Positions 6,399 to 47,500 of a DNA stretch of 59,637 nt are shown in pieces. How positions within the stretch are numbered: position 1 is the first letter of the stretch; each line of letters opens with the position of its first letter. The notes under the pieces were generated by a model, which had not been told where the DNA came from, searched no databases, and saw only the letters and a program-made list of their open reading frames with translations. A program made the position numbers and the translations under genes. The stretch lies in IMG/VR virus record IMGVR_UViG_3300048583_000219, positions 1-59,637 of that record. One strand, written 5' to 3'. The DNA is from a virus. Its lineage: Duplodnaviria; Caudoviricetes.

Positions 6399-6422
6399 CC
6401 CACTACAAGTAGAAACCACCCA

Positions 6423-9117: not shown

Positions 9118-9131
9118 CATCCGCCCCCTTC

Positions 9132-9170
9132 GCTGCGCCCGTTATGGACAAGCATTTTTTCCGCTACGCT
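9132..9170 (+). promoter_or_regulatory. Phage-specific promoter, copy 2 (scaffold/capsid)
   Basis: GCTGCGCCCGTT, 21 nt, TACGCT, 7 nt, then ATG 9178. Confidence 0.75.
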
Positions 9171-9177
9171 GGCGGGG

Positions 9178-14961: not shown

Positions 14962-16640
14962 GTGCCTATCGTCCAACTATCGAAACACTGGACGATTGGA
15001 ATGAGGCAATCGGGTCTTGCGAATGCTGCTTGATGCCTGAGTGCCCGGTGCCGACGAGGGAGTGCGAGAGCATCAGCGGATATATCACCTCCCAAGGCCA
15101 CCGCGATCCCGCGGACACGGTGTGGAAGAGATACAAAAAGCAGGGCACCCAATACACGTTGTTGAATTCCGGCACGGTTTTCGCTGACGGGATACCTCGC
15201 GTGCCGCCCGCCGAAACTCCAAGCATTCTTGTTCGGTCATGGAATTCTTACGGTTCTGAGTTTGTAGGCACCTACTTTGAGCATCTTTACACCGGAGGAA
15301 TTGGGGTGGGTGTAGATTGCCCAAGTTGGCCCAATACTTCGGAGTTTCTTTGTGAAGCCTCGGGCGAATCAACGGTTTCCTATTTCGAGGAAAAAGTATG
15401 GAGTCCTGACGGCACAGAGTTCAACTACGTCCACGGTAAAAGTTCCGAGATTGTCACTACAATTTCTCCTGCCGCTGGACTTGAGACAGTCGAGTACACA
15501 GCTTGGGTTGCAATTTACACTGATGCAGACGGGTGGCAGGTAGCGCATGATGCGTGGCAAGATTCGGTGGACGCTTACACGACATGGGAAACCAATCGCG
15601 ACAACTGGCTGGCTGAAGATCCAGATCGCAACACGGAAGATTTTCCAGACGTTGAGCCTCCGCTTCCGGGGGACGAACCAGAAGCGCAACCAGAACAATT
15701 CTACGGAGATTGCTGCTGGAAAATCACCGACGAAACCACGATTTTTGCTCATTCCTTTGGATATAAGTCTGACGATGGTACTAGCCCTGCTGATCCACCC
15801 GACAACGAGGTGGTTCAAGCGTGGCTTGATGCCGGTGGTGGAGGAACGGGGCCATCGACACCCGGCACGGGATCATTGGTGTATTATGTTTGCTCGCCTT
15901 CCAGCCCCTTGAGTTCACTTTACAACGAAGGGGGAATAACCGAAGAAGAGGGATACTTCGAGCCGCAAACTTATGCCGCGTGGCTGGCCGAAGTTTCGGC
16001 CCTGCTGGACGCGGAAATGCCCGGTGTGGACGCTGCCTGTAAAGGAGTTTTGTGCGTTTCGGATTATCAGGCGACCGAACCGGAAGAAGTGACTGATGTC
16101 GCCATTCTTTCCAAAACTTCTTCACGCTTTCGCTGGGTGATTCCCGTAGTCGGAACCAAAAACGACCCGGATGCCGAACTGCCAGACCCTCCCGATCCGC
16201 TGCCAGAAGGTCAGACGGAAGAGCAATGGGAAGACGCATGGTGGGCAGACCATCAGGTGGATGTGCGCTGGGAGGGCAGCTATTTCAAGATCACTTGGGA
16301 TGTGGTTTTTTTTCCTGTTGGTCACGACGCGATGATTGACGATCCGGACTACGAGCCGCCCGAGGAAGAGCCGGAAGGAGGGTGGCCGCCAGTTCCGCAG
16401 ATTCCAGACCCGGATGCCCCTGATCCGGTAGTGATCTCAACCGACCAGACATGGACATGGGCTGGCCCCGGAGATCCAGACGATTTGGCAACATGGAAAA
16501 GCGGATGGTATGATCTGCCTGTTCCCACTGCGCCCGGAGAAAACCGAGTCGTCAACATCCGCTTCGAGTGTTACCGCTCGCCTCAATTCGGAAACAAGCC
16601 ACAAGTGACGGGAGAAGCCTATGAAATCCCTTCTCCCTGA
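14958..16640 (+). CDS. Acidic Pro/Cys-rich putative virion protein
   Basis: ~560 aa starting MSAYRPT; several Cys clusters and PDP/EPP stretches. Confidence 0.55.
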   Translation: MSAYRPTIETLDDWNEAIGSCECCLMPECPVPTRECESISGYITSQGHRDPADTVWKRYKKQGTQYTLLNSGTVFADGIPRVPPAETPSILVRSWNSYGSEFVGTYFEHLYTGGIGVGVDCPSWPNTSEFLCEASGESTVSYFEEKVWSPDGTEFNYVHGKSSEIVTTISPAAGLETVEYTAWVAIYTDADGWQVAHDAWQDSVDAYTTWETNRDNWLAEDPDRNTEDFPDVEPPLPGDEPEAQPEQFYGDCCWKITDETTIFAHSFGYKSDDGTSPADPPDNEVVQAWLDAGGGGTGPSTPGTGSLVYYVCSPSSPLSSLYNEGGITEEEGYFEPQTYAAWLAEVSALLDAEMPGVDAACKGVLCVSDYQATEPEEVTDVAILSKTSSRFRWVIPVVGTKNDPDAELPDPPDPLPEGQTEEQWEDAWWADHQVDVRWEGSYFKITWDVVFFPVGHDAMIDDPDYEPPEEEPEGGWPPVPQIPDPDAPDPVVISTDQTWTWAGPGDPDDLATWKSGWYDLPVPTAPGENRVVNIRFECYRSPQFGNKPQVTGEAYEIPSP

Positions 16641-18004: not shown

Positions 18005-19051
18005 CTATTTGAAGAACGCCTTACCCTGCGCCTCGTTCACCGCCCGCCGGTAGTGGCGGAACAAGGTCGAGGATCCCGCCGCATGCCCGAGCGCCTGCTT
18101 GGCGGCATCCTCCCCAAACGCCGCGAGATAGTGGCTGGCGAACGTGTGGCGCAAGACATCGTTCATGTGGCCGATGCCGGCCGTCTTGCGAATCCTCGCC
18201 CAGCGACGTTTCCAGTTTGCCGGAGCCACCGGACCGGACTTCGGATGGTCTTTCAACTCGCGGCGCAACACCGGCTTGATCGGAATCAGGCGATCCGCGC
18301 CCGTCTTGCTGGCATCCTGCGGCACATAGATTTCCGCCTTGCCGACGTTCTGCCAAAGCAAGCGCGAGATTTCCCCCGTCTCAGCGTCCGGACGGATTCC
18401 GGCATACAGTAGCAGAGCGATGGCGCGGCGCTCGTCAGCGCCCTGACAGGCGGCAAGAACCGCCTTTTGCTGGTCGGGCGTGAGAATGTGAATCGTGGTG
18501 GATTTTCGGTGACGTTCTCGGAAGCCGATAATTGCCAGCACCCGCGCCGCGCGCATATCGATCGTCGAGCGGGACAGCGTTCTGTTTTCCTGCAACGCCT
18601 CCTCGATGCGTTCACGGTCGATCACCCCGCAGGCCAGCGGCATCAGTGACGGCACCCACCGCGGCAGCTTCTCCATGTCGTTGCGATACACGTCGCGCCA
18701 GTGCATCTCCCCCCAAAGCATCGCCCGTGCGTAGCGTTCCCGAAACGTCTCCTTGCTGGCGGTAGTGGCGATTCTGGCGACTGCCAGGCGAGCCGCCTCG
18801 ACGATCGAGACACCGGAGCCTTCGAGGATGCGCGCCGCCTCCTGTGCTTGGTTGGCGAGGGCAACCGGGATCATCCCCCCGCGCATGCCGGTCTTGTGAT
18901 TCTGCCGCAGACTGGCCGCGAATTTCTCGGCCGCGGTCTTACCCGTAAAGTATTTCCGCCGGCGCTTGCCGGTGGCGGTCATGTCCTTGGGGATCGAGAC
19001 CATCCACCCGCGGGGCGTTTCGATGGCATGGAATTGAGGGGTGCGAGCCAT
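18005..19051 (-). CDS. int: Phage tyrosine integrase
   Basis: LLYAGIRP, LRHTFASH, ALGH and RHY catalytic motifs; N-terminal arm-binding segment GKRRRKYF; adjacent to attP. Confidence 0.88.
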   Translation of the reverse strand: MARTPQFHAIETPRGWMVSIPKDMTATGKRRRKYFTGKTAAEKFAASLRQNHKTGMRGGMIPVALANQAQEAARILEGSGVSIVEAARLAVARIATTASKETFRERYARAMLWGEMHWRDVYRNDMEKLPRWVPSLMPLACGVIDRERIEEALQENRTLSRSTIDMRAARVLAIIGFRERHRKSTTIHILTPDQQKAVLAACQGADERRAIALLLYAGIRPDAETGEISRLLWQNVGKAEIYVPQDASKTGADRLIPIKPVLRRELKDHPKSGPVAPANWKRRWARIRKTAGIGHMNDVLRHTFASHYLAAFGEDAAKQALGHAAGSSTLFRHYRRAVNEAQGKAFFK

Positions 19052-19059
19052 GGGGGATG

Positions 19060-19254
19060 TCGCCACAATCGCCACTTGGCGGAATATCGGCTTGCATTTG
19101 CGTGCATCCGTCCGCACGCAAAATCAAGGAAAAACCGAGCCGACTGTCAGATTTGAACTGACGACCTGATCATTACAAATGGCATTTCGTCGATTGAAAA
19201 TCAATGGTTTGCAAGGGAGACGGGTGAAATCGCCACCATATCGCCACTTGGCGG
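19060..19254. repeat. Arm-type integrase-binding repeats flanking attP
   Basis: TCGCCAC at 19060 and 19230; TCGCCACTTGGCGG at 19069-19082 and 19241-19254. Confidence 0.6.
19137..19180 (-). other. attP core: 3' half of tRNA-Thr(UGU)
   Basis: Minus strand ATTTGTAATGATCAGGTCGTCAGTTCAAATCTGACAGTCGGCTC contains the anticodon loop (TGT), the T-arm and the acceptor strand. The 5' half of the tRNA is absent. Confidence 0.85.
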
Positions 19255-27125: not shown

Positions 27126-27164
27126 GCTGCGCCCGTTATCGAGACCCCATTTCCATGACACTAT
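27126..27164 (+). promoter_or_regulatory. Phage-specific promoter, copy 4 (replication leader)
   Basis: GCTGCGCCCGTT, 21 nt, CACTAT. Confidence 0.65.
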
Positions 27165-29340: not shown

Positions 29341-29604
29341 ATGAATCCGGAACTCTACGATCTTCTAACCAAACTATCCGCTATTCAAAAATCCAGGCAA
29401 TACAACTGGAAAAACGGCGATCCAGCCAGCTTGGATCTTGAGGCTGCGCACCAGTTGGAACTTACCGGACTGCGCAAGCGACTCGAAGCATTCTCCCCGA
29501 CCGGACGGGTGGCCGGAACCGAGGAAACCCCCACCGATGGAGCATCAAGCATTAACCGGTGTGGGAGTGCCCCATCGGTGGGATCAACCCTTTGCATGGC
29601 ATGA
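29341..29604 (+). CDS. Hypothetical protein
   Basis: Follows dnaB; ATGA-coupled to the next gene. Confidence 0.45.
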   Translation: MNPELYDLLTKLSAIQKSRQYNWKNGDPASLDLEAAHQLELTGLRKRLEAFSPTGRVAGTEETPTDGASSINRCGSAPSVGSTLCMA

Positions 29605-30041
29605 AACAGACGGTGACATATTTGAGGGAGGGCAGAAAGCTCCGCGCGACCGGCGTGATGGTGGCAAACGCTCCGAAGCAAGGTTTGGTGAAAGTGAAAC
29701 CCCACCGCGAAGATTGGGGGCATGTATGGATCACGCGCGAGGAAATCGCCGCAGGCCAAGGCAAGCCACTGGTTCAATCGCGCAAGCCCGCAAGCGAAAA
29801 CCCAAAGAAAACGCGCAAGCCGCGCGCCAAGAAACAGCCCCCGAAGCCACGCTGGCAACAGTTGATCCATGAGGTGAGAACGCTCGAAATCGAGCACGTT
29901 CCGGATGGGTGGCCGTGCGTGCGGATGCGGACACTCACCGAGCTTGCCAACGAACTCGAAGCGGCGCGGGCCAAACTGGCTGAGTTTCTTCCAGTCAACG
30001 CAGAGCTCTGGCACCGCCGGAGACGGCACACAAATCTATGA
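29601..30041 (+). CDS. Hypothetical protein bordering the cassette array; its C-terminus is encoded by attC1
   Basis: Reads through AGTCAAC as ...LPVN and stops at the ATGA inside attC1. Confidence 0.6.
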   Translation: MKQTVTYLREGRKLRATGVMVANAPKQGLVKVKPHREDWGHVWITREEIAAGQGKPLVQSRKPASENPKKTRKPRAKKQPPKPRWQQLIHEVRTLEIEHVPDGWPCVRMRTLTELANELEAARAKLAEFLPVNAELWHRRRRHTNL

Positions 30042-30122
30042 AACAAGAACCAAACACCGAGGCGGCGGAAACCGTCCAAACCACGAGCGTCCCGGCGGTT
30101 GTCCAGGAGCGACTTGTTGTGC
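29993..30122 (-). other. attC1 (distal end of the array)
   Basis: Plus strand AGTCAAC-gcaga-GCTCTGGCACCGCCGG...CCGGCGGTTGTCCAGGAGC-gactt-GTTGTGC. Confidence 0.8.
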
Positions 30123-30466
30123 CTCTTCCGTGTCCGTTTTGCGGCTATGAAGGAGTGCGAGTGCTGGAGTGCATCCGACTGAGCGTGTCTTGCGACCTGT
30201 GCCGCGGAATCGGGCCTGCTGCCGCCACCAGCCCCGAAGCTATCGAAAAATGGAACCAACGCCCCGCCGAAACGCTCATGTCTATCGACCGCACGCAAAT
30301 GCAGTCCGCGCTTCGAAAACTCGCAACGGCGGAATCGACCGGTGACTGGGGGAAAGATCTTGGGTGCATGCGAGAAATCGCACGCTTGGGGCTTTCTTGG
30401 CACAACGCAATAGGTATGGCAGCGGGAGCCGATGGATCGCCATCGTCAGCCAATGAAAAGCCTTAA
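30038..30466 (+). CDS. Cassette 1: Lar-family restriction-alleviation-like Zn-finger protein
   Basis: LPCPFCG...VSCDLCRGIGP...EAIEKWNQR. Starts in attC1 and stops in attC2. Confidence 0.65.
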   Translation: MKQEPNTEAAETVQTTSVPAVVQERLVVPLPCPFCGYEGVRVLECIRLSVSCDLCRGIGPAAATSPEAIEKWNQRPAETLMSIDRTQMQSALRKLATAESTGDWGKDLGCMREIARLGLSWHNAIGMAAGADGSPSSANEKP

Positions 30467-30494
30467 CCCGATTGCCATCACTCCCTTGTTATGC
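30400..30494 (-). other. attC2
   Basis: GCACAAC...GTTATGC with ATGGCAGCGGG/CCCGATTGCCAT arms. GCACAAC complements the GTTGTGC of attC1. Confidence 0.85.
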
Positions 30495-30517
30495 CTCTTC
30501 CGAATTACCAAACGACT

Positions 30518-30706
30518 ATGAAACCAACGCCAATGACTGCCGAAAGATACCTCGCAATTATCAATGATCTAATCCCGAAAGGCTGGATGCCGATTGGCCA
30601 GTTCGGGTCGATGACGTTCCGCCGAAACGGGAAAAACTACGACCTGTCCGCTGCGGATCTAGGTCAACTCGACCGCATCGAACGCGAGGGATTATTTTTG
30701 GCATAA
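30518..30706 (+). CDS. Cassette 2: small hypothetical protein
   Basis: MKPTPMTAERY...; its stop TAA lies within the GCATAAC core. Confidence 0.55.
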   Translation: MKPTPMTAERYLAIINDLIPKGWMPIGQFGSMTFRRNGKNYDLSAADLGQLDRIEREGLFLA

Positions 30707-30802
30707 CGCTGGGGGTATGGCGCGGGAACTAGCCGCGCAGGACTCAGAATCACCAAACCGCGACAACGGCTAGTTCCCGTTGCCATGACTCCCTTGTTAG
30801 CC
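30701..30802 (-). other. attC3
   Basis: GCATAAC...GGGAACTAGCCG/CGGCTAGTTCCC...GTTAGCC. Confidence 0.88.
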
Positions 30803-30813
30803 TTCTTTGAATT

Positions 30814-31101
30814 ATGACCGACGCACAAATAGCCTTAAAATTCTCGGACGATTACCCCTACGAAATCGACGAAGACACCAACCCTGGAGCGGACCTAAAG
30901 CCCGCCGACTGGGCACATCGTGCCGCCCGTGGAATAATGGCCGACATGAACGACAGGCGCGGGATCAAATGGGAAATCCAAAAGGTCGATATAGACACCC
31001 GGAAGGACATTGTGGCCGCGCTGGCTGCGATTATCCGCTTAGCGCATTCTGAGGCTAACGCAAAAAGTCCATCCGTGGACGAGAAAGGAACGAAACCATG
31101 A
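30814..31101 (+). CDS. Cassette 3: hypothetical phage protein
   Basis: DWAHRAARGIMADMNDRRGIKWE; tail and stop lie in attC4. Confidence 0.65.
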   Translation: MTDAQIALKFSDDYPYEIDEDTNPGADLKPADWAHRAARGIMADMNDRRGIKWEIQKVDIDTRKDIVAALAAIIRLAHSEANAKSPSVDEKGTKP

Positions 31102-31207
31102 AAGGCTGCATACGGTGTCACGGCCCGACCGACCACAAAGGCGACTGCGAGCGGTGCGACCGCGAAAGAACAGCGTCAGGGCCATCGGATGCGACGGCTT
31201 GTTCTCC
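31053..31207 (-). other. attC4 (long; its loop holds an RBS and start codon)
   Basis: GGCTAAC...GTCCATCCGTGG/CCAtCGGATGcGAC...GTTCTCC, with two extrahelical bases. Confidence 0.75.
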
Positions 31208-31403
31208 GTCTTATTCCGCTAGATTTCGACTCGGTCAAGACGCGGTGGAAATCCGCGTGCCGACTGGCGACATGGATAATCCGCACTGCTGGCACGGCCT
31301 CGATCTGCATACCGCAAAACAACTGCGGGACGATCTGTGCAAAGCCATCGACACCCTCGAAGCATTCCAAAATCTGCGCAAAGAGAATCCGGAGAACGCA
31401 TAA
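31098..31403 (+). CDS. Cassette 4: hypothetical protein with a CxxC...CxxC N-terminus encoded in the attC4 loop
   Basis: AAAGGA RBS and ATG 31098 inside attC4; ends ...ENA* in attC5. Confidence 0.55.
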   Translation: MKGCIRCHGPTDHKGDCERCDRERTASGPSDATACSPSYSARFRLGQDAVEIRVPTGDMDNPHCWHGLDLHTAKQLRDDLCKAIDTLEAFQNLRKENPENA

Positions 31404-31478
31404 GCTCATGGACGCCGACCTATTCACTCCGATTCAAGATGGACGCTCCTCGGCGTTCCATGCAGCGCCTGGTTCGGC
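31391..31478 (-). other. attC5
   Basis: GGAGAAC...GCTCATGGACGCCGA/TCGGCGtTCCATGcAGC...GTTCGGC. Confidence 0.85.
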
Positions 31479-32037
31479 GTTGGTGTGCGACGACACTGCT
31501 CCCGGCAAGCCCTATCTGGTGCCAATGACTCTGCGCAAAGCCAATGATTTCGTGGCCGCCCATCATCGCCACAACGGACGCACCGCCCGCAACGGCGGCA
31601 AGTGGTCCGCTGGCGTGGCCGTGGATGGAAAGCTCGTAGGCGTGGCTATCGTCGGAAACCCGCTGTCCGCGACACTGATGGACGGATGGACGGCCGAAGT
31701 GTTGCGCGTCTGCACCATCGAAGACGCACCGAAGGGAACCTGCTCGATGCTGTATCAAGCCTGCTGGCGGGCGTGGCGGGCAATGGGCGGTCGCCGCCTC
31801 ATCACCTACACGCTGCAATCCGAATCCGGCGCAAGCCTGCGAGGTGCCGATTGGCGAGTCGTCGGGCAGACAAAGCCAGTGAAGGACGGATGGCGGAAAA
31901 ACGACCATCTCAACGGAACCCGCACGCACTCGCCCGTCATGCTGGAGGTGAAGAACCGCTGGCAGCAAGATGACGGCTCTTATTCTTCGCCGAACGCAGA
32001 GGTGAGGCACGGCGCGAAGGACCCCGACCTCGACTAG
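31408..32037 (+). CDS. Cassette 5: XF1762/Mom-like GNAT-fold protein (possible DNA modification)
   Basis: ANDFVAAHHRH...GVAIVGNP...AEVLRVC...CSMLY...RAMGGRRLITYTLQSESGASLRGADW. Confidence 0.65.
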   Translation: MDADLFTPIQDGRSSAFHAAPGSALVCDDTAPGKPYLVPMTLRKANDFVAAHHRHNGRTARNGGKWSAGVAVDGKLVGVAIVGNPLSATLMDGWTAEVLRVCTIEDAPKGTCSMLYQACWRAWRAMGGRRLITYTLQSESGASLRGADWRVVGQTKPVKDGWRKNDHLNGTRTHSPVMLEVKNRWQQDDGSYSSPNAEVRHGAKDPDLD

Positions 32038-32074
32038 AAACTTTCCCGCCGTTGCCTCGACCGACTTGTTAGCC
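31989..32074 (-). other. attC6
   Basis: GCCGAAC...GGTGAGGCACGG/CCGtTGCCTCgACC...GTTAGCC, with canonical extrahelical T and G on the plus strand. Confidence 0.9.
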
Positions 32075-32110
32075 GTTCGGGGGACGCGGAAACACCAAAC
32101 AAATACGCAT

Positions 32111-32401
32111 ATGACACCAACCGAAGCCGCTACGGCGGACACAAAACAATGGAGAAAAGACCTCGACGGCGTGCTGCAAAGCATCAAGCGGGGGAGTGAC
32201 ACGAAGCGCGAAGTCCTCACCAGTGAGGATCACCCACGGGCAAGCCGTGAACGCTCGCTGGCCGTGACGAAACTCCAAGAAGCAATCATGTGGCTTGGAA
32301 TGGACCTCAAGGACATCGGGGAAACGCCGAACCCATACCCGCACAGCTACGACCCCGCGTCTCCGGTGATTGAACCGACGGCGGACGGATTGAAGCTGTA
32401 A
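32111..32401 (+). CDS. Cassette 6: Acb2/Tad1-like helical hairpin protein (candidate signalling-nucleotide sponge)
   Basis: SRERSLAVTKLQEAIMWL resembles the Acb2/Tad1-family RExSLAxTKLEEAxxW motif. Confidence 0.6.
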   Translation: MTPTEAATADTKQWRKDLDGVLQSIKRGSDTKREVLTSEDHPRASRERSLAVTKLQEAIMWLGMDLKDIGETPNPYPHSYDPASPVIEPTADGLKL

Positions 32402-32411
32402 ACACCAACCA

Positions 32412-32442
32412 AGCCGGAGAGTGGGTCTTCCATTCTCCGGCT
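32412..32442 (+). other. RNA hairpin after the cassette 6 gene, overlapping the attC7 core
   Basis: AGCCGGAGAGTGG-GTCTT-CCATTCTCCGGCT (13-bp stem, one G-U pair). Confidence 0.55.
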
Positions 32443-32525
32443 AACGCAATAGGTGAGGCACGGCGAGATAAGACGCCGCCTCACGAATAAACTTTCCCGC
32501 CGTTGCCTCGACCGTCTTGTTAGCC
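32439..32525 (-). other. attC7
   Basis: GGCTAAC...GGTGAGGCACGGCG/CGCCGtTGCCTCgACC...GTTAGCC. Confidence 0.9.
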
Positions 32526-32564
32526 GTTCGGGGGACGCGGAAACCACAACAAACCAGAACCAAA

Positions 32565-32771
32565 ATGCAACCATACCTAGACAAAGTATTCGATGAGTTC
32601 CGTGACTTGGAAAACAAGCTGAACGAACTCAGGGACTTCATGGAAAATCCCGAGCAGTGGAGAACAGTGAGTCCTGACAACCAAGAGCGGATGGAAATGC
32701 AGGCGAACGTCATGACGCTGTATCTGCACATCCTGAACAACCGCATCAAAACTTACAGCCCGACCGCATGA
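32565..32771 (+). CDS. Cassette 7 gene A: crAss001_48-like coiled-coil protein
   Basis: LENKLNELRDF...QANVMTLYLHILNNRI pattern. Confidence 0.55.
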   Translation: MQPYLDKVFDEFRDLENKLNELRDFMENPEQWRTVSPDNQERMEMQANVMTLYLHILNNRIKTYSPTA

Positions 32772-32831
32772 AATAATACCGGACCATGTTGGTGACGCCA
32801 CCGATATGGTCCGGGCAACCGCAAAACACCC

Positions 32832-33428
32832 ATGGAAAAAGAAATACAGACTCACGAAAAGAAAACCGATATTCCCGAAGACATGTGGGAAGCCGTCGGC
32901 GCATTACGCGGCGCACTCGCGGACAATCCCTGCGTCATTCTGGACGAGGCCGACCCGGAAGACGGCGACCGGCACTACTTCTTCTCAGACCCCGACTTGT
33001 ATGGGGCCATTCAGGACGTTGTAGAGAACCTGCCGGGGAAAACATTCCAAGGACACAGCTACGTGTCACTCGCGTATGCGCTGATGAAGCATGGAGTAGT
33101 ATGCGAAGCGGCAATCGAAGATTCAACGGCATTCGACAACGGGAAAACGCTGACCGGAATCTGCCGTGCATTCTGCGACCTCCAAGAAGACTCACCCGCA
33201 AAAAACATAATCACCGATAAAGAACGCATGGACTTCCTCGAATCGCTCGGGGATGCGCCTACTGACACCGACCTCCATATTCACCCGGAATGTGTCGCGT
33301 CCTTCAATATCTACCTTCGCGGGAACCGTCACAAGCCGGGCTTGGAGAATAACATTGCAGCACGGCAACACCACGGAATCACCTTCCGGGCGATGATCGA
33401 CGATGCAATTTTTTCGGCTAACCACTGA
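32832..33428 (+). CDS. Cassette 7 gene B: hypothetical protein; stop supplied by attI
   Basis: Ends ...FSANH* through GGCTAAC-CAC-TGA; contains a DKERMDFLE motif. Confidence 0.6.
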   Translation: MEKEIQTHEKKTDIPEDMWEAVGALRGALADNPCVILDEADPEDGDRHYFFSDPDLYGAIQDVVENLPGKTFQGHSYVSLAYALMKHGVVCEAAIEDSTAFDNGKTLTGICRAFCDLQEDSPAKNIITDKERMDFLESLGDAPTDTDLHIHPECVASFNIYLRGNRHKPGLENNIAARQHHGITFRAMIDDAIFSANH

Positions 33429-33450
33429 TTCAACCGCGTGCGCGGTTTTA
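33416..33450 (-). other. attI-like site
   Basis: Minus strand ...GGTTGAATCAGTG-GTTAGCC is a core with no attC hairpin, just upstream of intI. A second GTTRRRY (GTTGAAT) and the palindrome AACCGCG-TG-CGCGGTT lie nearby. Confidence 0.7.
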
Positions 33451-33468
33451 TTCCAAACCCTCAAATTT

Positions 33469-34443
33469 ATGACCAGAACCGAAACCCTCGCCAAATTCGA
33501 TATGATCGCTCGCCGCCGGATTGCTCTGACAACAGAGCGCTCTTATCGGTCATGGATCGTGAAATATCTGTCATTCCTCGGGACGGAAAAGGCCAAGGCA
33601 GCGACGACTTCCGAAGCGAAGATGGAAGTTTTCCTAAGCTCCATGGCTCACGAGGACTATTCGAGTGTCAGCCAGAATCAGGCGTTCAACGCACTTCTGT
33701 TCCTTTACCGCCATGTTCTCAAAATCGAAATTGGAGACGTTTCGGCTTTGCGCTGTCGCAAGAAGCAGAAGGAACGCTATATCCCGACACAGGCGGAAAT
33801 CTCCGCAATGTTCGAGCACCTGAAAAACACTCCGACTTACAACGTCCGCTTGCTGGCGGCTTTGCTCTATGCGTGCGGCTTGCGGGTGCAATCCGGATGC
33901 GAACTTCGCATCAAGGATTTCGACTTGGAACGGATGGTTCTGACAATCCATGAAGACAAGGGGGACAAGGACCGCCAAGTTTCGATTCCGGAATTATTGT
34001 TGCCAGCGCTTCGCCGCCAGATTTCCCGCGCATCGGCCCTTGCCGAAATCGACATTGCAGCGCTGCAACCGGTGCAACTTCCTGGACGTCTCGACCGGAA
34101 ATACCCAGCCAAACAGTTCGAAGTCGGTTGGCACTTCCTGTTTCCGTCTCCTGCACCGTGCGCTCATCCAAGAACCAAGAAAATGGTCCGCTGGTGCATG
34201 GGACCAGACGTGATTCAGCGGGCAATCAAGGATGCGGCAAAACGTGCGGGCATTCCCGGCAAGGTGACTCCTCATTGCCTGCGCCATTCGTTTTGCAGCG
34301 ATCTGTTGGATTCAGGCCACAACCCGCGCCGGGTGCAAGAGGCTATGGGACACGCGGACATTAGGACCACGATGGGATACGCCCGGAAAGACTGCCTGAG
34401 CCTGCCAAGCCCGATTGAAACCATGAAACTTCGTTCCGCATGA
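33469..34443 (+). CDS. intI: Integron integrase
   Basis: SQNQAFNALLFLYRHVL, LLYACGLR, KGDKDR, the IntI-specific insertion VQLPGRLDRKYP...WHFLFPS...HPRT, VTPHCLRHSF, MGHADIRTTMGY and a C-terminal SP. Confidence 0.92.
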   Translation: MTRTETLAKFDMIARRRIALTTERSYRSWIVKYLSFLGTEKAKAATTSEAKMEVFLSSMAHEDYSSVSQNQAFNALLFLYRHVLKIEIGDVSALRCRKKQKERYIPTQAEISAMFEHLKNTPTYNVRLLAALLYACGLRVQSGCELRIKDFDLERMVLTIHEDKGDKDRQVSIPELLLPALRRQISRASALAEIDIAALQPVQLPGRLDRKYPAKQFEVGWHFLFPSPAPCAHPRTKKMVRWCMGPDVIQRAIKDAAKRAGIPGKVTPHCLRHSFCSDLLDSGHNPRRVQEAMGHADIRTTMGYARKDCLSLPSPIETMKLRSA

Positions 34444-34784
34444 AGGCAGAGCGCACCAACGACAAGTGGACCGAATACGAAGCTCCGTGGGTTTCGGAAG
34501 TGGAGGGCGAGCCGTTCACCTACCGGGTGCAGTCGCGGTCTGAATCAGGCATGGCGCACACGGTTGATCTGACACAGCGCGGCGGGCATGGTGCCTGCAC
34601 ATGCACCTTCTTTCAAATTCGCGCCAATTCGAACTTCCGCCGGCATGGTCAACACATTCCATACGCCCCGAAGCGGGAAGGGGTGAGTGAGTGCATACAC
34701 ATCAGGTCCGCCCTCGATTTCTTCCATGTCAACGTCACTATCCCCATGCTCGCCTCATTCAAAAACGGAATCTCGAAACCATGA
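34440..34784 (+). CDS. SWIM-type zinc-finger protein
   Basis: YRVQSRS...HTVDL...CTCTFF...ECIHI; ATGA-coupled to intI. Confidence 0.55.
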   Translation: MKAERTNDKWTEYEAPWVSEVEGEPFTYRVQSRSESGMAHTVDLTQRGGHGACTCTFFQIRANSNFRRHGQHIPYAPKREGVSECIHIRSALDFFHVNVTIPMLASFKNGISKP

Positions 34785-36257: not shown

Positions 36258-36423
36258 TTCTCCGCGCTTCCGCGGTGCCCTCGACCTTGGCCTTGGCCTC
36301 ATCGGAGACACGGACAGACAGCAAGGCACGGCGCGAGCCTTCGATAGGTTTGCGGCCGGATCCGGGCCGCTTGCCTCCGCGGCCTGGCCCCTTTTTCTTG
36401 GCGATCTTTTTCTTGGCACTCAT
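36214..36423 (-). CDS. Small DNA-binding protein (GGxRxGxGRK plus RHH-like)
   Basis: RGGKRPGSGRKP...LSVRVSDE. Confidence 0.6.
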   Translation of the reverse strand: MSAKKKIAKKKGPGRGGKRPGSGRKPIEGSRRALLSVRVSDEAKAKVEGTAEARRITPGELVQAWAEKL

Positions 36424-41572: not shown

Positions 41573-44500
41573 ATGCCAAAATACAACCGGAGCTTGCCCG
41601 AGGATGAAATTGCTTCCTACCTCGCCCAGGCCAGACAAGGAACCGCCGGGGTCAACCCTCGCGCGCAAACGCTCGCCCGTTCGTCCAGCAACCGCCGCGC
41701 CCAGCGTTTCGGACAGGACATGATGGCGGACCAGATGGAGCAAAACGCCCGGAATGCGGAGGACATCGCGCGGGACCAGGATCGAGCGGCCAAAGAGGCG
41801 GAAGCCGCGGCGAAAGCCCAAGCCACAGAGCAAGCCAAGGCAGAGCGAGCCGCGCATTACCGCAATGTCAGGGAGGCCGAAGCCCAAGGGGCGAAGATTG
41901 TCACCGATATTCCGACCGGCAGGCGGACGGTGGCGACACATCCGGATGGTGGCACGATGTTTGAGAAAGGCGAGGTAGGAGAGCCATTCATCCAACCCAC
42001 TGCGGAAGCTGCCATTTCCAGCGTGCCGGGGATTGGCGACATGATGCGACTCACGCGGCCAGCGGACAAGCAGACACTCGACCAGACAACCGAGGTGGCG
42101 CAAAAGTTCCGGGATGACCGCGGGCGCGAAACGATCGCGCCGTTGCCATCGGACACCGACCCCAAGACCGGAGAAATCACCGGCAAGCTGAAAGACACGT
42201 TTGGTCAGACGGTCCCCGTGAAGCTCGGAACGGATCAACGCATTGCTGCGAGCAACCAGCGGGAAGCCGCCATCAAGGCCGAGAAACAAAAGTTGGACCT
42301 TCGGGAAAACCAGTTGAACCAAGCCAAAGCGCTCTTTGACCCGCAGTGGGCACCGGTGAAGAAGGAGTTCGATGCGCTCGGCAAGGAGTTGAACAGCTTC
42401 CCGAAGACGTTCCGCAAAAACCAAACAACCGGCAAGTGGGAGAAGATCGACCCGAAGACCGATAGCGGCATCCCATACGACCCGCGGGAATTGACAGTGT
42501 GGCAGAAAGAGCGCGATGCCCTTCAAACCCGGTATGAGGCCGCCAAGGCGAAGCACGACCAGATGCTTCCCGCCGCGGAGAACTTCAACCGGAACGAGCG
42601 GGAGATTTCACAGAAGCGCCTCAAACTCGAAGCGGAGCGGCTGAAACTGGCAAGCGGACGCCCCCTTGACGAGGATCTGGCGCAACTACTCGCGGACAAG
42701 CCAGAAAGCGTAAAGCCCGAGGACGTGGCAGCGTTTGGAGACAATCAGCCCCCGGCCAATTCATCCGAACAGCCTGTTGGCGCGAATAACGCACCCGCAG
42801 GAGAGAGCCGCCTGCCGCGAGTCTTGGACGCAATGGACGCCGCCGAAGCTCGGATTCGCCGCGATGCGGCCATCGGAGACATTGACCCGGCGACAGCGGA
42901 GCGCAAGACGCAAGCCCTCGCCGCCCTTAAGCAACAAACGGTAGAACAGGCGAAAACCGAAGCCGCGGCGCAACTTGAAGCGCAAGGCAGGGAAATCGCC
43001 TCGCAGTTCATCGGCACTGGCGTTCGCTCGCAAGAACTGACCGGCGCGAAGCCTGGCAACTATGCCGGCATCAAGAACGAGATTTCCGAGATGGGCGCGT
43101 TCATCATGGGCAAGGACAACACGCCCGAGAAGTCCGCGCAAATGTTCCGCTTGGCGGGCAATGACCTCGATGGAGCCATCAAGCTCGCGGAGGGCGAGAC
43201 GAAAAAGAACCTCACGGCCATGAAAGCCGCCTTCGACAAGGCGGGAATCAAGCCGGAGGATCGCACGCGCATCATTCAGGACGCCGCCAAGTCGCAGGCA
43301 TGGACCGAGAAGGACAAAGACAACCTGCGCAAGCTCTCCACCGGCGATCTGGTCATCAATCCGGGACGGGTGTTCGGCCAGAAAGACGCGATGATTGCCG
43401 AAATCAACGCTTCAGACGCCACACCGGAGGCCAAAGCGGCAGCGGTCGAGCGGCTGGATGCCATGCGTGAAGCCATGGAGGGCAAGCTATTCCGCGCCAC
43501 GGTGGCGGCGGATGATGATTTCGAGGACTTCGCCAATTCCCAATTCAAGGCCGGAAACCGCGACAAGTCTGCCATTCTCGACCAGTGGGCGGAGCAACAG
43601 AAAGCCCGCGGATGGGTCTTCAAGGCCACCGATGCGGTCACAGAAGGCGTGAAAACAGGCTCGGTCGGCGTGGTGAAAACGCTCGTCGGCGGGGCAGCGG
43701 GCGTAAGTGCGCTCGTCGGTGCGGACGGCGCTGCGAAGTCCTTGGGACAGGCGGCTTCCGACATGGGCAACGTGATCCAAAGCGAGAAAGAAGCGGCCAA
43801 GCTCCGCGGAATGACTGGCTCTTTCGGTATCGCAAGCGACCTCACCGACACGGTGGTTCAGATGGCTCCGATGATCGCAGGCGGAACGGTTGCCGGCGGG
43901 CTGAAAGGCATGTCTGCCATCGCCACCCGAGGGATGTCCGCCTACGGATGGGCGGGGGCGCAAGGCTACGAATCCAAGCTGGCGGATGCGGTTTCCATTG
44001 CGGAACAGCAAAAAGGCTCTGCCCTCACCGGCGAGGAAATCGCCGCAGTGCTTGGACGCACGGATACCCAGGTTGCGGCATTCCTCAACGGCGCACAGAC
44101 GGCCATTCTCGCCGCGGCCATGCCGAAAGGTGCGGAACGTGTGGCGCTCGGCGTGAAGTCCGGCAGCATGACGGTTTCTGATTTCCTGCGCCAAGGCGGC
44201 ATGCGGGCCATCAAGGATGGCACGCTTCGCACGGAATTGAAGGCGATGGGCAAGACGATCTTCGCGGATGCCACCGATGAAGCGCTCGAAGAGTTCTCTA
44301 ACCAAGTCCTAGACGGCATGATTTCCGTCGCTGCGCTGGATCAGGAATTGAAGCTCGGGGATCTACTGGAAGAGTCATTCAAGGCCGGCGCGCTCGGCGG
44401 ACTGGTTGGCGGCGGTCTCCCGCAGGTTTATCGAGGCGAAACCAAGGCAGACAAGCACAAGCAGATGGTCGCCGCCCTGCAACAACAGACGCTTGGCACG

Positions 44501-47500
44501 CCCCCGCCCCGGATGGTTTCCACGGCGCTTGCCACCCTCGACCCGCAGGCCAAGGCACCGGACCCCGCGGAAGTCGCAGCCGCCCGCAAGCTCGTCGCGC
44601 CAAGCGTGGCACCGCTCAAGGCAATCGAAACCCTGCGCACGGATCACGAAGCCGCCATCAAGGCAAAGGACTACACCGGAGCGGCCAAGATCGACGAGGA
44701 AATCAACAGGACTTTCACCGAAGCACAAACAGCGGATGCGAAGGATGCCGCGGAAGCAGTGCTTCTCACCCGCGAGCTTGCCGGACTCGAAGAACAGGCC
44801 GCAAGCGACGTTTGGCAGGCGAATCAAGACCTCAACGCCGCCCGCGCCACTGGCGACAAGCAGGCGATCGCAGCGGCGGAAGTCGCGCTTGAACAGGTCC
44901 AGCAAGCCGCCCCGAACGTGCCGCTTGCCCGTGCTGCCGTGAAACTCGCCACGGGTCTAAGCCCTGCCGCTCTTACCGATGCGGAACTCCGCGCCGTGGG
45001 CTACAAACCCAGCGAGGGAGGTCCGCCCGTGCCGATGAGTCCGAAGGAACTGGCAGACAGTGGACTTACCAAGCCGCTGGTCCGCTTCGATTCGGCGGAC
45101 GGATCGCCAATCCTTCTCGACGAGGCCCGCGCCCAGGTCGCGCAAACCTCCGCCTTGGCCGGAAACCGCATCAAGCTCGGTGAACAGGCTGCCATGGAGG
45201 CCGCGCAAGCCCGCGTCGATGCTGCCCAACCCTCACCCACCGCACCCAATGAGCAAGACCCGCAAGGAACACACGGACCGCAAGCCACTCCGCAAGATTC
45301 ACAACCCGCACCCGCCAACCCGAACGCACCGGGTGGAGGATATGGAACTGACCAACGAACCGCTACGTCCGGAACCGAGGCGAAGAAACGGAAAGTTGGA
45401 GAGGGAGGCACGACGGGCAGCACGGCAGGAGCGTCCGGGGCTGCCGTAGAGGCTGGCATTTACGAGTCCGCCCGCGCCGTGGATCCGTCCTTGCCGGAAA
45501 TTCCTGCCCGAGTGGCGGCAGCGTTCCAAGCTGGCGAACCGGTTTCCGTCTCGATGCAGAAAGCCAGCGGGATCGACGTGCCGGAGGGCTACACGCGCCA
45601 AGGGAACGTGTGGACCCCTCCGGACGGACAAACCGTGTCCAAACCCGGACAAACCGTGTCGGAAGCGCCTGCTGGACTCGCACAAGCCGCCAAGGTGGCG
45701 GAATCCGTCAAGGCTGCCGTCATCAAGGCCATGCCCGCCCTGAAAGGCCGGATCGAGATTTCCCAAACGGGCGAGGACGGCGGCGGCGCGGACCTGCTCA
45801 TTGAGTCCGGAGTCATCCGCCTGAACATCCCAGCCATCCAGCGGGCGATCACCCGCGCCGGCGGGGACGTGGCTGCGGTCACGGAATATCTGGAAACCAT
45901 CGTGGCGAGGCATGAGGCGGTTCACGTTGTGCAGACGGAAGCCATCCGCGAGGAATGGAAAGCCGCGGGAAGCCCCGGCGAGTTCATGGACTTCTACCGG
46001 TCCTTCTATGAAGACCTCGCGGGGGAACTGCTCACCCCGGAAGCGGTCAAAGCCGCCCGCCGCATCTACGGCAAGGACAAGAAGACCGGAGAATGGCACT
46101 TCGACAAGATCCCGACCGACTACCAGAAAGCCGCGGAGTTCACGCGGATGCTCGTCGAGGCCAAACTTGACGGCAACACCGAGGCATTCTCGGAACTGTT
46201 CCGCGCCGTCAAGACCCAGGGGGCACGTTCGAAGCTCGCCAAGCTCATCCGCAAGGCGGTCGAGATCCTGACCGGCATGAAGCTCTCGCCCGCGGCGGAA
46301 GCGCACGTTGCCAAGCTCAAGGAACTGTATGCGGAACTCAGCGCCCCGGCAGAAAATGCACAAAAACCGCAAGGAAAGGCCGAATCTGCGGAAAAACCTG
46401 CAATTTCCGGCCTCCGCATCGAAACCAGCGGCAAAACCGCCCGCGTTCTCAACGGGACGGAAGTCCTGTGGGAAGGTCCGGCGGATCAGGCGCAAGCCGA
46501 GCTTGCCAGCCTCAAAGCGGCTCAAGCCTCCCCTATGTTCCTCACCGGGACCGCCATCAAGTCCGCTTTGGAGCGCTTCCCGCGCCTCGGCGGCAAGCTC
46601 CGCGCCGAACTCGAAGCCGCGGCGGATGAAGTCACGGACGCGATCGAAGCCCTGCCCGCCGGTGAACGTGCCCAGGCAGCCGAACAGGCAATTGCGGACC
46701 GGATCAACCTGATCGCGGACAGGGAAGGGGAGCGCACCGGCAAGAAGCGGGAGGAAATCATCGAGGGATTCCGCGCCGTGGCAGGCAAGCGGGCCGCCAA
46801 GCAGGCCGCCAGCATCGAGCAAGCGGTGATCGGCAGCGAAGCCCCGGAAGTTCCCGCGGGCAAGCCAGAGCGCCGCGACACGCCCAATTCCGAAATGACC
46901 GTTGATGTCGTATCAACGTATCTTGATATTTCCCAACTCGTCGGATCGTCGGACCCGCTCTTTCCCGGTGGGGCACTGCAACCGCGCAACCGCGCCGGAC
47001 AGGCCAGCCAGAACCAGCGGGAGGAAATGGTTCAGAACATCCGCGACAAGGACAACCAACATCGGCGCTACATCGAGGGTGCAACCACGGATTCAGGCCG
47101 GATGGTCGTCGCGCCGCTCTTCGGGGCGGACGGCAAGCACATGACCAACGAGGCGGGCAAGCCGATGTTCTACGTCCTGTCCGGCAATGGCCGGCGCAAT
47201 GCGCTCCAAGAAGCCGCTACGCGAAAAGTAGCTGCCAAGGTCACTGCCGGTTTCCGCGAGACTGCCGCGGCCGAAGGGATCGACGTGGAGGGCATGACCC
47301 TGCCGGTTCCAGTGTCCGTCTTCGTGCCGAAGAGCGCCAAGGAGGCGATCGATCTGGCGGAATACTCGAACCGTGACGCGCAACTCTCTGTTTCGAACAC
47401 CGAACAGGCCAACCGGGACGCTGCCAGCATCGAAAAGGCCAAGATTCTCAAGTTGTGGGAGCCGGACGCCACCGGAGACGCTGGAGCGGCCTCCAACCGG

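What the first reader, a model, noticed from the sequence alone, without database searches (positions are those of the whole stretch)
29993..34443. A temperate phage carrying its own complete integron (IntI, attI and 7 attC cassettes)
Seen: 33469-34443 has the tyrosine-recombinase catalytic residues plus the IntI-specific insertion (LPGRLDRKYP...WHFLFPS). Next to it are an attI-like core (33416-33422) and seven hairpins bounded by NNNNAAC...GTTNNNN. Every cassette is flanked by exactly complementary cores: GTTGTGC 30116/GCACAAC 30400; GTTATGC 30488/GCATAAC 30701; GTTAGCC 30796/GGCTAAC 31053; GTTCTCC 31201/GGAGAAC 31391; GTTCGGC 31472/GCCGAAC 31989; GTTAGCC 32068/GGCTAAC 32439; GTTAGCC 32519/GGCTAAC 33416. 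Established: this is the footprint of cassettes inserted as circles, and integrons are known mainly from bacterial chromosomes, plasmids and transposons. Inference: this is a native phage gene-shuffling platform rather than a passenger, because the cargo is phage-type and intI is ATGA-coupled to the next phage gene.
Basis: partly seen in the sequence, partly recalled or inferred. Interest (0 to 1): 0.97.

Follow-up and report, generated by a model that had tools for sequence, protein, structure and literature searches.

The report
Phage-owned integron with reversed cassettes
A complete phage genome carries its own working-type integron (a gene-capture system normally found in bacteria) whose seven captured genes, several of them likely counter-defence genes, face the opposite way from textbook cassettes so that the phage's own operon reads them.

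Summary
The window is a complete circular phage genome (127-b terminal repeat; portal, capsid and terminase genes; a separate phage integrase). The gene at 33469-34443 is an IntI-family integrase. A conserved attI lies just upstream of it. Seven attC sites (29993-32525) score with a covariance model trained only on attC sites from other integrons. All 7 cassettes are flanked by exactly complementary 7-mers.

Relative to intI, attI and the attC sites are arranged as in classical integrons. The cassette genes, however, lie on intI's strand and point toward it. This is neither the classical layout nor the Treponema "reverse" layout.

This IntI forms its own clade (57-90% identity) with one invariant attI. 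It occurs in several unrelated phage backbones and in only 4 of 401 host-family genomes. One relative holds the same cassette, 100% identical, at two attI copies. Cargo includes Lar-like, Mom-like and Acb2/Tad1-like genes.

Integrons in phages are already in print (Qi et al. 2023), but as captured passengers, so I call this a new variant of a known kind. Earlier notes of this scan describe similar phage integrons on other DNA (e1-6081982, e1-6083154). Recombination activity is inferred, not shown.

The parts
27126..27137 (+). Nearest upstream copy of a 12-mer that occurs 6 times, all on the + strand. Candidate phage promoter element of the operon that holds the array and intI.
   Evidence: exact copies at 1944, 9132, 16789, 27126, 39060, 41527 and none on the minus strand. 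Function inferred (lead from note e1-6285728).
29993..30122 (+). attC 0, the distal end of the array. The + strand is the bulged (bottom, recombining) strand. The long loop holds the stop of ORF 29601-30041 and the ATG of the Lar-like gene.
   Evidence: 30.6 bits, E 2.2e-5, full model. Manual pairing.
30038..30466 (+). Cassette gene: Lar-like restriction alleviation protein.
   Evidence: PF14354, 34.2 bits (cut-off 28.6).: phrog_599, E 4.2e-8.
30400..30494 (+). attC 1.
   Evidence: 31.6 bits, E 1.2e-5.: 11 of 12 pairs, bulges C and T.: a 750-nt contig of run X1 matches 30400-30709 with 0 differences and differs to the left of 30400.
30491..30706 (+). Cassette gene, 71 aa, unknown function. ATG lies inside GTTATGC and the stop inside GCATAAC.
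   Evidence: No Pfam or PHROG hit.
30701..30802 (+). attC 2.
   Evidence: 31.0 bits, E 1.8e-5.: DNA fold z -5.41.: run X7 record 26 matches 30705-30799 with unlike sequence before it.
30814..31101 (+). Cassette gene, 95 aa, unknown function. Ends inside attC 3 and is ATGA-coupled to the next gene.
31053..31207 (+). attC 3, with a terminal loop of about 100 nt that holds the start of ORF 31098.
   Evidence: 12 of 12 pairs, bulges C and T.: only a partial match, 31066-31200, 17.3 bits, E 0.044.: whole-site fold not better than shuffles (z -0.07).
31098..31403 (+). Cassette gene, 101 aa, unknown function.
31391..31478 (+). attC 4.
   Evidence: 42.0 bits, E 3.2e-8.: 12 of 12 pairs.
31408..32037 (+). 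Cassette gene: Mom-like DNA modification protein. The start codon is uncertain (31408 or about 31480).
   Evidence: phrog_1384, E 1.4e-31.: about 86% identical copies covering 31471-31985 in runs X1 and X7, flanked by other attC sequence.
31989..32074 (+). attC 5.
   Evidence: 56.8 bits, E 6.9e-12 on the + strand, against 16.4 bits on the minus strand.
32111..32401 (+). Cassette gene: Acb2/Tad1-hairpin family protein, a candidate signal-sponge counter-defence protein.
   Evidence: PF24729, 29.4 bits (cut-off 27).: Tad1 8KBB, E 0.0011, over a 28-residue motif.: 2308 relatives.: relatives sit behind an attC in 12 viral loci.
32439..32525 (+). attC 6.
   Evidence: 54.9 bits, E 2.1e-11 on the + strand, against 17.5 bits on the minus strand.
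32565..32771 (+). Gene in the attI-proximal cassette: crAss001_48-related, function unknown.
   Evidence: PF21825, 53.3 bits.: phrog_774.
32832..33428 (+). Second gene of the attI-proximal cassette, 198 aa, unknown function. Its stop lies in attI.
   Evidence: contigs of runs X2 and X4 end their match at 33422.
33416..33468 (+). attI. The junction is GGCTAAC followed by a conserved core (33420-33437) and a GCGGTTT block, about 45 nt before the intI ATG.
   Evidence: core invariant in 10 of 10 clade loci, with unrelated sequence to the left of AAC..
33469..34443 (+). intI, the integron integrase, 324 aa.
34440..34784 (+). Next phage ORF, ATGA-coupled to intI. No family hit.
36362..36387 (+). 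The strongest + strand terminator-like hairpin scanned (9 pairs, 8 G-C; weaker 5-pair matches lie earlier, e.g. 29969, 33846, 34590). Candidate end of the transcription unit.
   Evidence: 9 pairs, 8 G-C, followed by a T run. A consensus match only.

Best explanation
This is a genuine integron that belongs to a lineage of temperate phages of Verrucomicrobiota. IntI (33469-34443) recombines folded attC hairpins with the attI site just upstream of its own gene. The position and polarity of attI and the attC sites relative to intI are the classical ones: the array lies upstream of intI, and the bulged 'bottom' strand of each attC is intI's sense strand.

Each cassette carries its gene in the opposite sense to textbook cassettes. 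On intI's strand the order is attC, then gene. All seven cassettes, intI and the following phage genes therefore form one co-directional unit inside the phage replication/early operon. That unit is read from a phage promoter, not from an integron Pc promoter. Genes start inside or just after one site and mostly end inside the next.

New cassettes enter at attI and leave by attC x attC recombination, so the phage can swap small accessory genes. The identifiable cargo suggests counter-defence: Lar-like, Mom-like and Acb2/Tad1-like proteins.

Shown: the anatomy, the family placement, the strand polarity, the cassette footprints and the turnover among relatives. Inferred: activity of this particular IntI, the transcription pattern and the function of the cargo.
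For: Phage. The window equals its whole record and has an exact 127-b terminal repeat. It carries portal, capsid, terminase small and large subunits, RecT and a separate integrase.

IntI. The catalytic R, K, H, R, H, Y residues and the W of the IntI insertion are invariant in 31 clade sequences. In a 40-row tree the window sits in a 10-row clade (100/100) within a 24-row group (97/94) that holds proteins named integron integrase. Salmonella XerD groups elsewhere.

attC sites.

Polarity controls. In a class 1 integron turned so that intI1 is on the + strand, dfrA5 lies on the minus strand. Its attC has C and T bulges on the 3' arm of the + strand (sequence printed, paired by eye). In a Vibrio plasmid integron the three VCR-like sites hit on the + strand and the cassette genes are on the minus strand. 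Across the 32 related loci scanned with the window (33 rows), nearly all hits lie on intI's strand upstream of intI. The window's cassette genes on the + strand are real genes (family hits).

attI.

Footprints.
- 7 of 7 flanking 7-mers are exact complements.
- Relative L004 has a 290-nt, 100% identical cassette (attC plus a 65-aa ORF) in its array and again beside a second attI copy between terminase and portal. Both ends fall at AAC.
- In Logan contigs of four other samples, cassette pieces stop at the predicted junctions (30400-30709 with 0 differences; 32799-33422 followed by another attC). Depth peaks on the attC sites.

Turnover. No ORF of the window's array has a hit in 9 clade loci. Those loci hold 26 attC hits, all on the + strand.

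Same unit elsewhere. 15 of 80 viral loci encoding relatives of the Acb2/Tad1-like gene have attC hits. All 60 of 60 hits are on the gene's strand. In 12 loci an attC ends 39-81 nt before the gene. Three of these loci have a co-directional IntI-like gene downstream.

Sporadic in hosts. 4 of 401 family genomes have this IntI.
Against: - No experiment or read-level evidence shows that this IntI recombines these sites. No excised circle and no empty attI junction appeared, which held only contigs of runs sharing 0.14 or less of the sampled words.
- The TIGR02249 score is 4.7 bits below NCBI's cut-off.
- attC 3 is weak under the covariance model.
- The covariance model was trained on sites that my own geometry scan had picked next to IntI genes, so it inherits that geometry. 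Its E-values are rough.
- Transcription from a phage promoter is inferred. No RNA run was available.
- Cargo functions rest on family hits, two of them marginal. The fold search for the Acb2/Tad1-like protein gave nothing specific.
- The context of most clade members (short metagenome contigs) is unknown, so chromosomal, non-phage members cannot be excluded.
Confidence: 0.78

Rival explanations
1. Passenger integron. A piece of a host chromosomal integron was picked up recently by the phage, as reported for Vibrio anguillarum prophages, and has no role for the phage.
For: This is the published precedent (PMC9892861). Verrucomicrobial chromosomes do carry IntI genes: P0101 of Roseibacillus lies on a 5.5-Mb contig. 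Contexts of most close homologues are unknown.
Against: - The nearest named chromosomal IntI is only 45% identical.
- The clade has its own invariant attI.
- It sits in at least four different phage backbones.
- It is found in only 4 of 401 host-family genomes.
- The genes are co-directional and start/stop-coupled with the flanking phage genes.
- The cargo is phage-type.
Confidence: 0.1
2. Fossil array. The structure is a real integron by descent, but it no longer moves cassettes. IntI is kept for another job or is decaying.
For: No direct sign of recombination was seen in this genome. The score lies just under the family cut-off. The HH pair of VchIntIA after the insertion is WC here.
Against: - The ORF is intact and all catalytic residues are invariant across 31 clade members.
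- 7 of 7 flanking cores are exactly complementary.
- A cassette is 100% identical in another context in run X1.
- Relative L004 has a 100% identical cassette at two attI sites.
- Cassette sets are entirely different among relatives.
Confidence: 0.09
3. Not an integron. The recombinase is the phage's integration or dimer-resolution enzyme, and the hairpins are terminators or regulatory repeats.
For: Pfam alone sees only a 'phage integrase' domain. The hairpins sit between genes, as terminators do.
Against: - A separate phage integrase exists.
- The hairpins lack T runs; the terminator scan listed none at the seven sites.
- They carry start codons and coding sequence.
- They score as attC with the correct polarity.
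- The IntI insertion is present.
- The L004 duplication joins an attC-bounded unit to attI exactly at AAC.
Confidence: 0.03

Closest known systems
Classical integrons (class 1; Vibrio cholerae chromosomal integron with VchIntIA, PDB 2A3V)
   Same: - An IntI with the family-specific insertion.
- attI directly upstream of intI.
- attC hairpins with an R box, an unpaired spacer, 3 bp, a bulge, 6 bp and a bulged T.
- The bulged strand is intI's sense strand.
- Cassettes are flanked by exactly complementary cores.

   Different: - Cassette genes lie on intI's strand and read toward attI and intI, not away from a Pc promoter.
- Genes begin inside or just after 'their' attC and end in the next site.
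- The whole unit is embedded in a phage operon.
- The host is a phage.
- The cargo is phage accessory genes.
Treponema-type 'reverse' (inverted integrase) integrons
   Same: intI and the cassette genes point the same way.
   Different: In Treponema, intI is transcribed toward attI and the array lies downstream (passage of PMC3607928). Here intI reads away from attI and the array lies upstream. A GenBank phage record, Virus Rctr41k, shows the Treponema-type layout instead: 5 scanner hits and 4 covariance-model hits, all on the minus strand downstream of its IntI-like gene.
Integrons and CALINs reported in phage genomes (Qi, Rajabal, Ghaly, Tetu, Gillings 2023, PMC9892861)
   Same: Integron parts inside phage genomes. 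DNA methyltransferase genes occur among phage-borne cassettes.
   Different: The three complete cases and the one In0 in that paper are described as fragments of a host chromosomal integron, a class 1 mosaic on P1, and an inactive Shewanella prophage. The Shewanella one has the classical gene orientation. No phage-specific IntI clade, conserved phage attI or reversed cassettes are described in the sections I read (abstract, section 9 part 1, passages). The supplements were not seen.
Integron cassettes as anti-phage defence stores in bacteria (bioRxiv 10.1101/2024.07.02.601686; abstract seen only in the listings)
   Same: Cassette arrays used as libraries of small genes in the phage-host conflict.
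   Different: Those arrays are bacterial and hold defence systems. This one is on the phage side and holds likely counter-defence genes.

Membership tests
Integron (IntI + attI + attC cassettes) | Tyrosine recombinase of the IntI family with the additional domain between patches II and III | tested here: met
   ungapped alignment to VchIntIA across the insertion.: groups with named integron integrases and not with XerD.: insertion residues invariant in the clade.
Integron (IntI + attI + attC cassettes) | Score above NCBIfam TIGR02249 curated cut-off | tested here: not met
   260.3 bits against a cut-off of 265, a miss of 4.7 bits. The score is still about twice that of the XerC/XerD models.
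Integron (IntI + attI + attC cassettes) | attI site next to intI, conserved on the intI side and variable on the cassette side of the crossover | tested here: met
   10 of 10 clade loci.: the 12-mer core occurs only in clade loci.
Integron (IntI + attI + attC cassettes) | attC sites: imperfect hairpins with R and L boxes and extrahelical bases on one strand | tested here: met
   6 full-length hits plus 1 partial hit, with strong strand asymmetry.: the geometry scan. IntegronFinder's own model could not be run.
Integron (IntI + attI + attC cassettes) | Cassettes behave as discrete units bounded at the G/TT (AA/C) crossover | tested here: met
   7 of 7 exact complements.: duplicated cassette at a second attI in L004.: contig pieces end at the junctions.
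Integron (IntI + attI + attC cassettes) | Pc promoter at the intI/attI end that drives cassette genes outward | tested here: not met
   Cassette genes are on the opposite strand to the one a Pc would read. The scan found no sigma-70-like site on the minus strand near attI; that scan is crude.
Integron (IntI + attI + attC cassettes) | IntI-catalysed attI x attC and attC x attC recombination | not testable with these tools
   Only sequence footprints are available.
Treponema-type reverse integron | intI transcribed toward attI, with the array downstream of intI | tested here: not met
   The array and attI lie upstream of intI. The definition is taken from PMC3607928.
CALIN (attC cluster lacking an integrase) | No intI nearby | tested here: not met
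   An intact intI lies 47 nt from the array end.

The most novel reading that the evidence does not exclude
Phages own a distinct and widespread class of integron. In it, several divergent IntI lineages sit in phage operons, cassettes are built as 'attC then gene' on the integrase's strand so that phage transcription reads straight through them, extra attI docking sites exist in late operons (between terminase and portal), and the cassette pool is a shared library of counter-defence genes traded between co-infecting phages. This would mirror the bacterial integrons that store defence systems.
Probability: 0.55. Interest if true: 0.9.

Novelty: new variant of a known kind. Interest (0 to 1): 0.8.

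Why it matters
Integrons are the textbook bacterial gene-capture device. In phages they have been reported only as rare captured passengers. A phage-specific IntI clade with its own attI, reversed cassettes read from phage operons, and Lar-, Mom- and Tad1/Acb2-like cargo would mean that phages use site-specific cassette exchange to shuffle counter-defence genes.

This gives a concrete mechanism for the fast turnover of phage accessory regions. It gives a way to find new anti-defence genes: anything sitting behind a phage attC. It also offers a natural test of how attC strand choice and gene orientation can be uncoupled.

Two cultured hosts with relatives of the element (Haloferula luteola, Luteolibacter marinus) make it testable.

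Tried and rejected
- Whole-site DNA folds are only partly informative. 2 of 6 full sites beat shuffles clearly (z -5.41 and -3.04). attC 3, cut to 148 nt, gave z -0.07. The defined geometry and the covariance model were more telling.
- The structure of the Acb2/Tad1-like protein (pLDDT 67.5) matched only generic helical hairpins in the PDB, with no match at E 0.001 or better. This gives no structural support for the Tad1/Acb2 assignment.
- PDB sequence searches gave nothing meaningful for the Mom-like protein and nothing for the 198-aa protein. The protein atlas gave only sub-0.9 leads to viral hypothetical clusters.
- Sequencing runs: no RNA holder was listed. All holders share 0.14 or less of the sampled words and are contigs. 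No empty-junction or circle joint was listed. Several short-sided joints (30408/30793, 31206/31392 and others, sides of 21-43 nt) were set aside as probable cross-matches between similar attC sites.
- phrog_2 terminase was found on the records of L090 and L097 in 0 of 2 cases, and at weak E-values in three MAG genomes. I did not pursue whether the more distant co-directional arrays are all in phages.
- Literature searches for a described phage-native integron or for reversed cassettes found only PMC9892861 and papers citing it. Subscription journals are not covered, and the supplements of PMC9892861 (the tables listing the 17 CALINs) were not seen.
- A 3-mismatch attI-like match at 29764 was judged to be chance: 3 of 100 shuffles gave at least 2 matches.
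- I first wondered whether the layout equals the 'inverted integrase' group. This was rejected after reading PMC3607928.

Full report
WHAT THE WINDOW IS. The 59,637-base window is the whole record. It ends in an exact 127-base terminal repeat, so it is a complete, circularly closed genome. It encodes an SU10-type portal, a capsid protein, small and large terminase subunits, RecT, an exonuclease, DnaB, a DUF1376 replication protein and a phrog_1 integrase on the minus strand at 18005-19117. It is therefore a phage with its own integration enzyme, separate from the gene in question. The closest relatives of the integrase discussed here lie in Luteolibacter marinus and Haloferula luteola, so the host is probably a member of the Verrucomicrobiota.

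THE INTEGRASE. ORF 33469-34443 scores 260.3 bits (E 2.5e-77) on NCBIfam TIGR02249 'integron integrase'. This is just under the curated cut-off of 265 and about twice its scores on the XerC/XerD models. In an alignment of 31 clade members, the catalytic Arg, Lys, His-x-x-Arg, His and Tyr and the Trp/Phe/Pro of the insertion are invariant. About 100 protein clusters are 57-90% identical to it. Identity then drops to 45% with proteins named integron integrase. In a 40-row maximum-likelihood tree it lies in a 10-row clade (100/100) inside a 24-row group (97/94) that contains those named IntIs. Salmonella XerD groups with Bacteroidota and archaeal Xer-like proteins (99/99).

THE attC SITES. The 7-mers that flank each cassette are exact reverse complements in 7 of 7 cases. 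The two R boxes within one attC agree at only 4-7 of 7 positions. That contrast is the expected footprint of cassettes that once closed into circles.

Each site folds as R box, unpaired spacer, 3 bp, one bulged base (G or C), 6 bp, a bulged T, then a stem and a variable loop. A script that looks for exactly this geometry found six sites in the array, all on the + strand, and none on the minus strand there. It found 11 other hits in the rest of the window, against a mean of 7.25 in 20 shuffles.

I then built a covariance model (R1) from 16 attC sites of other integrons that are not in this IntI clade, including the dfrA5 attC of a class 1 integron and sites next to Burkholderiaceae and Planctomycetota IntI genes. 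The seventh, with a roughly 100-nt terminal loop, matched only partly (17.3 bits, E 0.044). The same sites score 16-17 bits on the minus strand. The best hit elsewhere in the window is 16.4 bits. One caveat: the training sites were chosen by my geometry scan, and the E-values are rough.

POLARITY. Which strand carries the bulges decides the direction of insertion. As controls I took a class 1 integron turned so that intI1 is on the + strand. There the dfrA5 gene is on the minus strand, and its attC shows 3 bp, C, 6 bp, T on the 3' arm of the + strand (sequence printed, paired by eye; my scanner skipped it because of its R-box filter). In a Vibrio plasmid integron the three VCR-like sites also hit on the + strand and the cassette genes are on the minus strand. 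Across the 32 related loci scanned with the window, the hits lie almost always on intI's strand and upstream of intI.

The window has this same polarity: bulges on intI's strand, and the array upstream of intI. So intI, attI and the attC sites are arranged classically. What differs is the genes. The Lar-like, Mom-like, Acb2/Tad1-like and crAss001_48-like ORFs are all on the + strand. They point toward attI and intI, so each mobile unit reads 'attC, then gene' on intI's strand. This is not the Treponema 'reverse' integron, in which intI is transcribed toward attI and the array lies downstream (PMC3607928, passage read).

attI. Aligning the 100 bases before the intI start codon in 10 clade loci shows an invariant block beginning right after an AAC, followed by a GCGGTTT block about 45 nt before the ATG. 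Everything to the left of the AAC is unrelated between loci. The 12-mer core occurs in those 10 loci only, among the 150 loci held at that time, and once in the window.

DIRECT FOOTPRINTS OF CASSETTE MOVEMENT.
(a) Relative L004 (IntI 79% identical) has a second copy of the attI core at 15318, between its terminase and its portal-like gene. The unit next to it (15027-15316: attC plus a 65-aa ORF) is a 290-nt, 100% identical copy of a cassette in its main array (7809-8098). In the array the unit is followed by the next attC, and at the second site by attI. Both ends fall at AAC. This also confirms that the attC travels with the gene downstream of it on intI's strand.
(b) I laid Logan contigs of four runs from four studies on 29500-34500. 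A 750-nt contig matches 30400-30709 with no difference and then continues with unrelated sequence to the left. Other contigs match 30393-30708, 30705-30799 and 33078-33422. One matches 32799-33422 and then continues into an attC resembling attC 0 instead of attI. In a viral metagenome the depth peaks on attC 1, 2, 4, 5 and 6 (69-663) and is mostly near zero between them. These runs share 0.14 or less of the sampled words and are contigs, so they show presence in other contexts and nothing more.
(c) attC 5 and attC 6 resemble each other through the site and on into the leader of the following gene, as expected if the attC and the downstream gene form one unit.

RELATIVES. The clade IntI lies next to phage genes of different kinds:
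- terminase plus phrog_332 connector (L004, L087);
- Dda-like helicase and primase (L002);
- tape measure protein (L003, identical to a Haloferula luteola genome locus);
- phrog_310 transposase (L007, L008).

Of the ORFs in 9 clade loci, only IntI, a Gp37/68-like protein, a small-terminase-like protein and an exonuclease hit window ORFs. No cassette ORF of the window has a hit. Model R1 finds 26 sites in 7 of the 10 clade loci searched, all on intI's strand. There are none at E 0.01 or better in L001, L003 and L009, two of which have almost no upstream sequence. Among 20 cassette ORFs of relatives, 4 have Pfam hits: two methyltransferase-like proteins, a pol-beta-like nucleotidyltransferase and a weak DUF6782 match. 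The clade IntI was found in 4 of 401 genomes sampled from the family of Luteolibacter marinus. That is sporadic, as expected for a mobile element.

THE SAME UNIT IN OTHER PHAGES. The Acb2/Tad1-like gene belongs to a family of 2308 proteins. It has 237 matches in IMG/VR, of which 80 loci were kept. Model R1 hits 15 of those 80 loci. All 60 of 60 hits lie on the gene's strand. In 12 loci an attC ends 39-81 nt before the matched start, as in the window. Two loci hold 14 and 11 sites within about 6 kb. Three loci (two of them near-identical) also have a full-length IntI-like gene, 31-32% identical to the window's, downstream on the same strand. The co-directional layout is therefore not confined to one IntI clade.

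HOW IT PROBABLY WORKS. An exact 12-mer occurs six times, always on the + strand. One copy lies at 27126 and the next at 39060. The strongest + strand terminator-like hairpin between them is at 36362-36387. I infer one transcription unit running from the replication genes through the array, intI and the ATGA-coupled next gene.

Genes are packed into the sites. Four start codons lie inside an attC. Seven of eight ORFs that precede a site end inside it. Two junctions are ATGA overlaps. IntI would insert new cassettes at attI, at the promoter-distal end of the array, and excise them by attC x attC recombination.

Here the bulged strand is the non-template strand of this operon, which might favour folding during transcription or phage replication. 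This last point is speculation.

Cargo. The Lar-like gene (PF14354, phrog_599) and the Mom-like gene (phrog_1384, E 1.4e-31) point to escape from restriction. The Acb2/Tad1-hairpin protein (PF24729 at 29.4 bits against a cut-off of 27; Tad1 8KBB, E 0.0011, over 28 residues) points to a signal sponge, but the fold search did not confirm this. Four cassette ORFs have no family hit, and a fifth (crAss001_48-like) matches only families of unknown function.

WHAT IS KNOWN. Qi et al. 2023 (PMC9892861; abstract, first part of the results and passages read; supplements not seen) screened 10,705 phage genomes. They reported three complete integrons, one In0 and 17 CALINs. They describe the complete ones as fragments of a host chromosomal integron, a class 1 mosaic on P1 and an inactive Shewanella prophage. 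My searches found no description of a phage-specific IntI clade, a conserved phage attI, reversed cassettes or counter-defence cargo. Subscription journals are not covered. Earlier AI notes of this scan report similar elements on other DNA (e1-6081982, e1-6083154 and others). I did not test those. The terminase-portal docking site in L004, and the attC sites between terminase and portal in L087 and L088, fit e1-6083154.

VERDICT. It is a real integron by every sequence criterion I could test, apart from a near-miss on one curated score and the absence of a Pc-type arrangement. It belongs to a phage lineage rather than being a recent passenger, and its cassettes are reversed. I call it a new variant of a known kind, with interest 0.8. 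Recombination activity, expression and cargo function remain to be shown.

Noticed in passing
window 41573-59637 continuing to 30-1643 across the circular junction: One + strand frame is open for 6,526 codons with no stop, about a third of the genome (first-reader note e1-6285724). The minus-strand ORFs that a greedy ORF picker lists there are probably spurious.
   Followed up: partly
window 1944, 9132, 16789, 27126, 39060, 41527: An exact 12-mer occurs six times, all on the + strand, in front of the portal, capsid, replication, terminase and giant-gene blocks. It is a candidate phage-specific promoter or regulator site (note e1-6285728).
   Followed up: partly
L004 15027-15360: A second attI copy with one inserted cassette lies between the terminase large subunit and the portal-like gene of a related phage. 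The cassette is a 100% duplicate of one in the main array.
   Followed up: yes
L087 7077-7159 and L088 7009-7091: An attC hit (29.8 bits) lies between terminase and portal-like genes, about 5.6 kb downstream of intI, in two further relatives. No copy of the attI 12-mer core is found there.
   Followed up: no
L149 (GenBank KX853513, Virus Rctr41k) 4680-10101: A published phage record has an IntI-like gene annotated 'xerD' (39% identical over the tblastn match to the window's IntI). attC hits lie on the minus strand downstream of it: five by the geometry scan (12 of 12 pairs) and four by model R1. They separate + strand genes that include two methyltransferases. This is a Treponema-type reverse integron in a phage, and it is not among the four records in Table 1 of Qi et al. 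2023.
   Followed up: partly
L171 984-5580 and L185 830-5918: Two IMG/VR contigs hold 14 and 11 attC hits within about 5 kb, all on the strand of the Acb2/Tad1-like gene. These are large co-directional arrays in viral contigs.
   Followed up: no
L161/L162 3733-4701 and L168 3371-4309: IntI-like genes only 31-32% identical to the window's sit downstream of co-directional attC arrays that include an Acb2/Tad1-like cassette. This is the same layout in another IntI lineage.
   Followed up: partly
window 32776-32815: A 9-bp-stem hairpin lies between the two genes of the attI-proximal cassette. It has no AAC/GTT boxes. Contigs of run X2 break at 32799-32814, as they would at a repeated element. It may be a remnant site.
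   Followed up: no
L012 496-4926: A Limisphaerales MAG locus has attC-geometry hits on intI's strand both upstream and downstream of intI.
   Followed up: no
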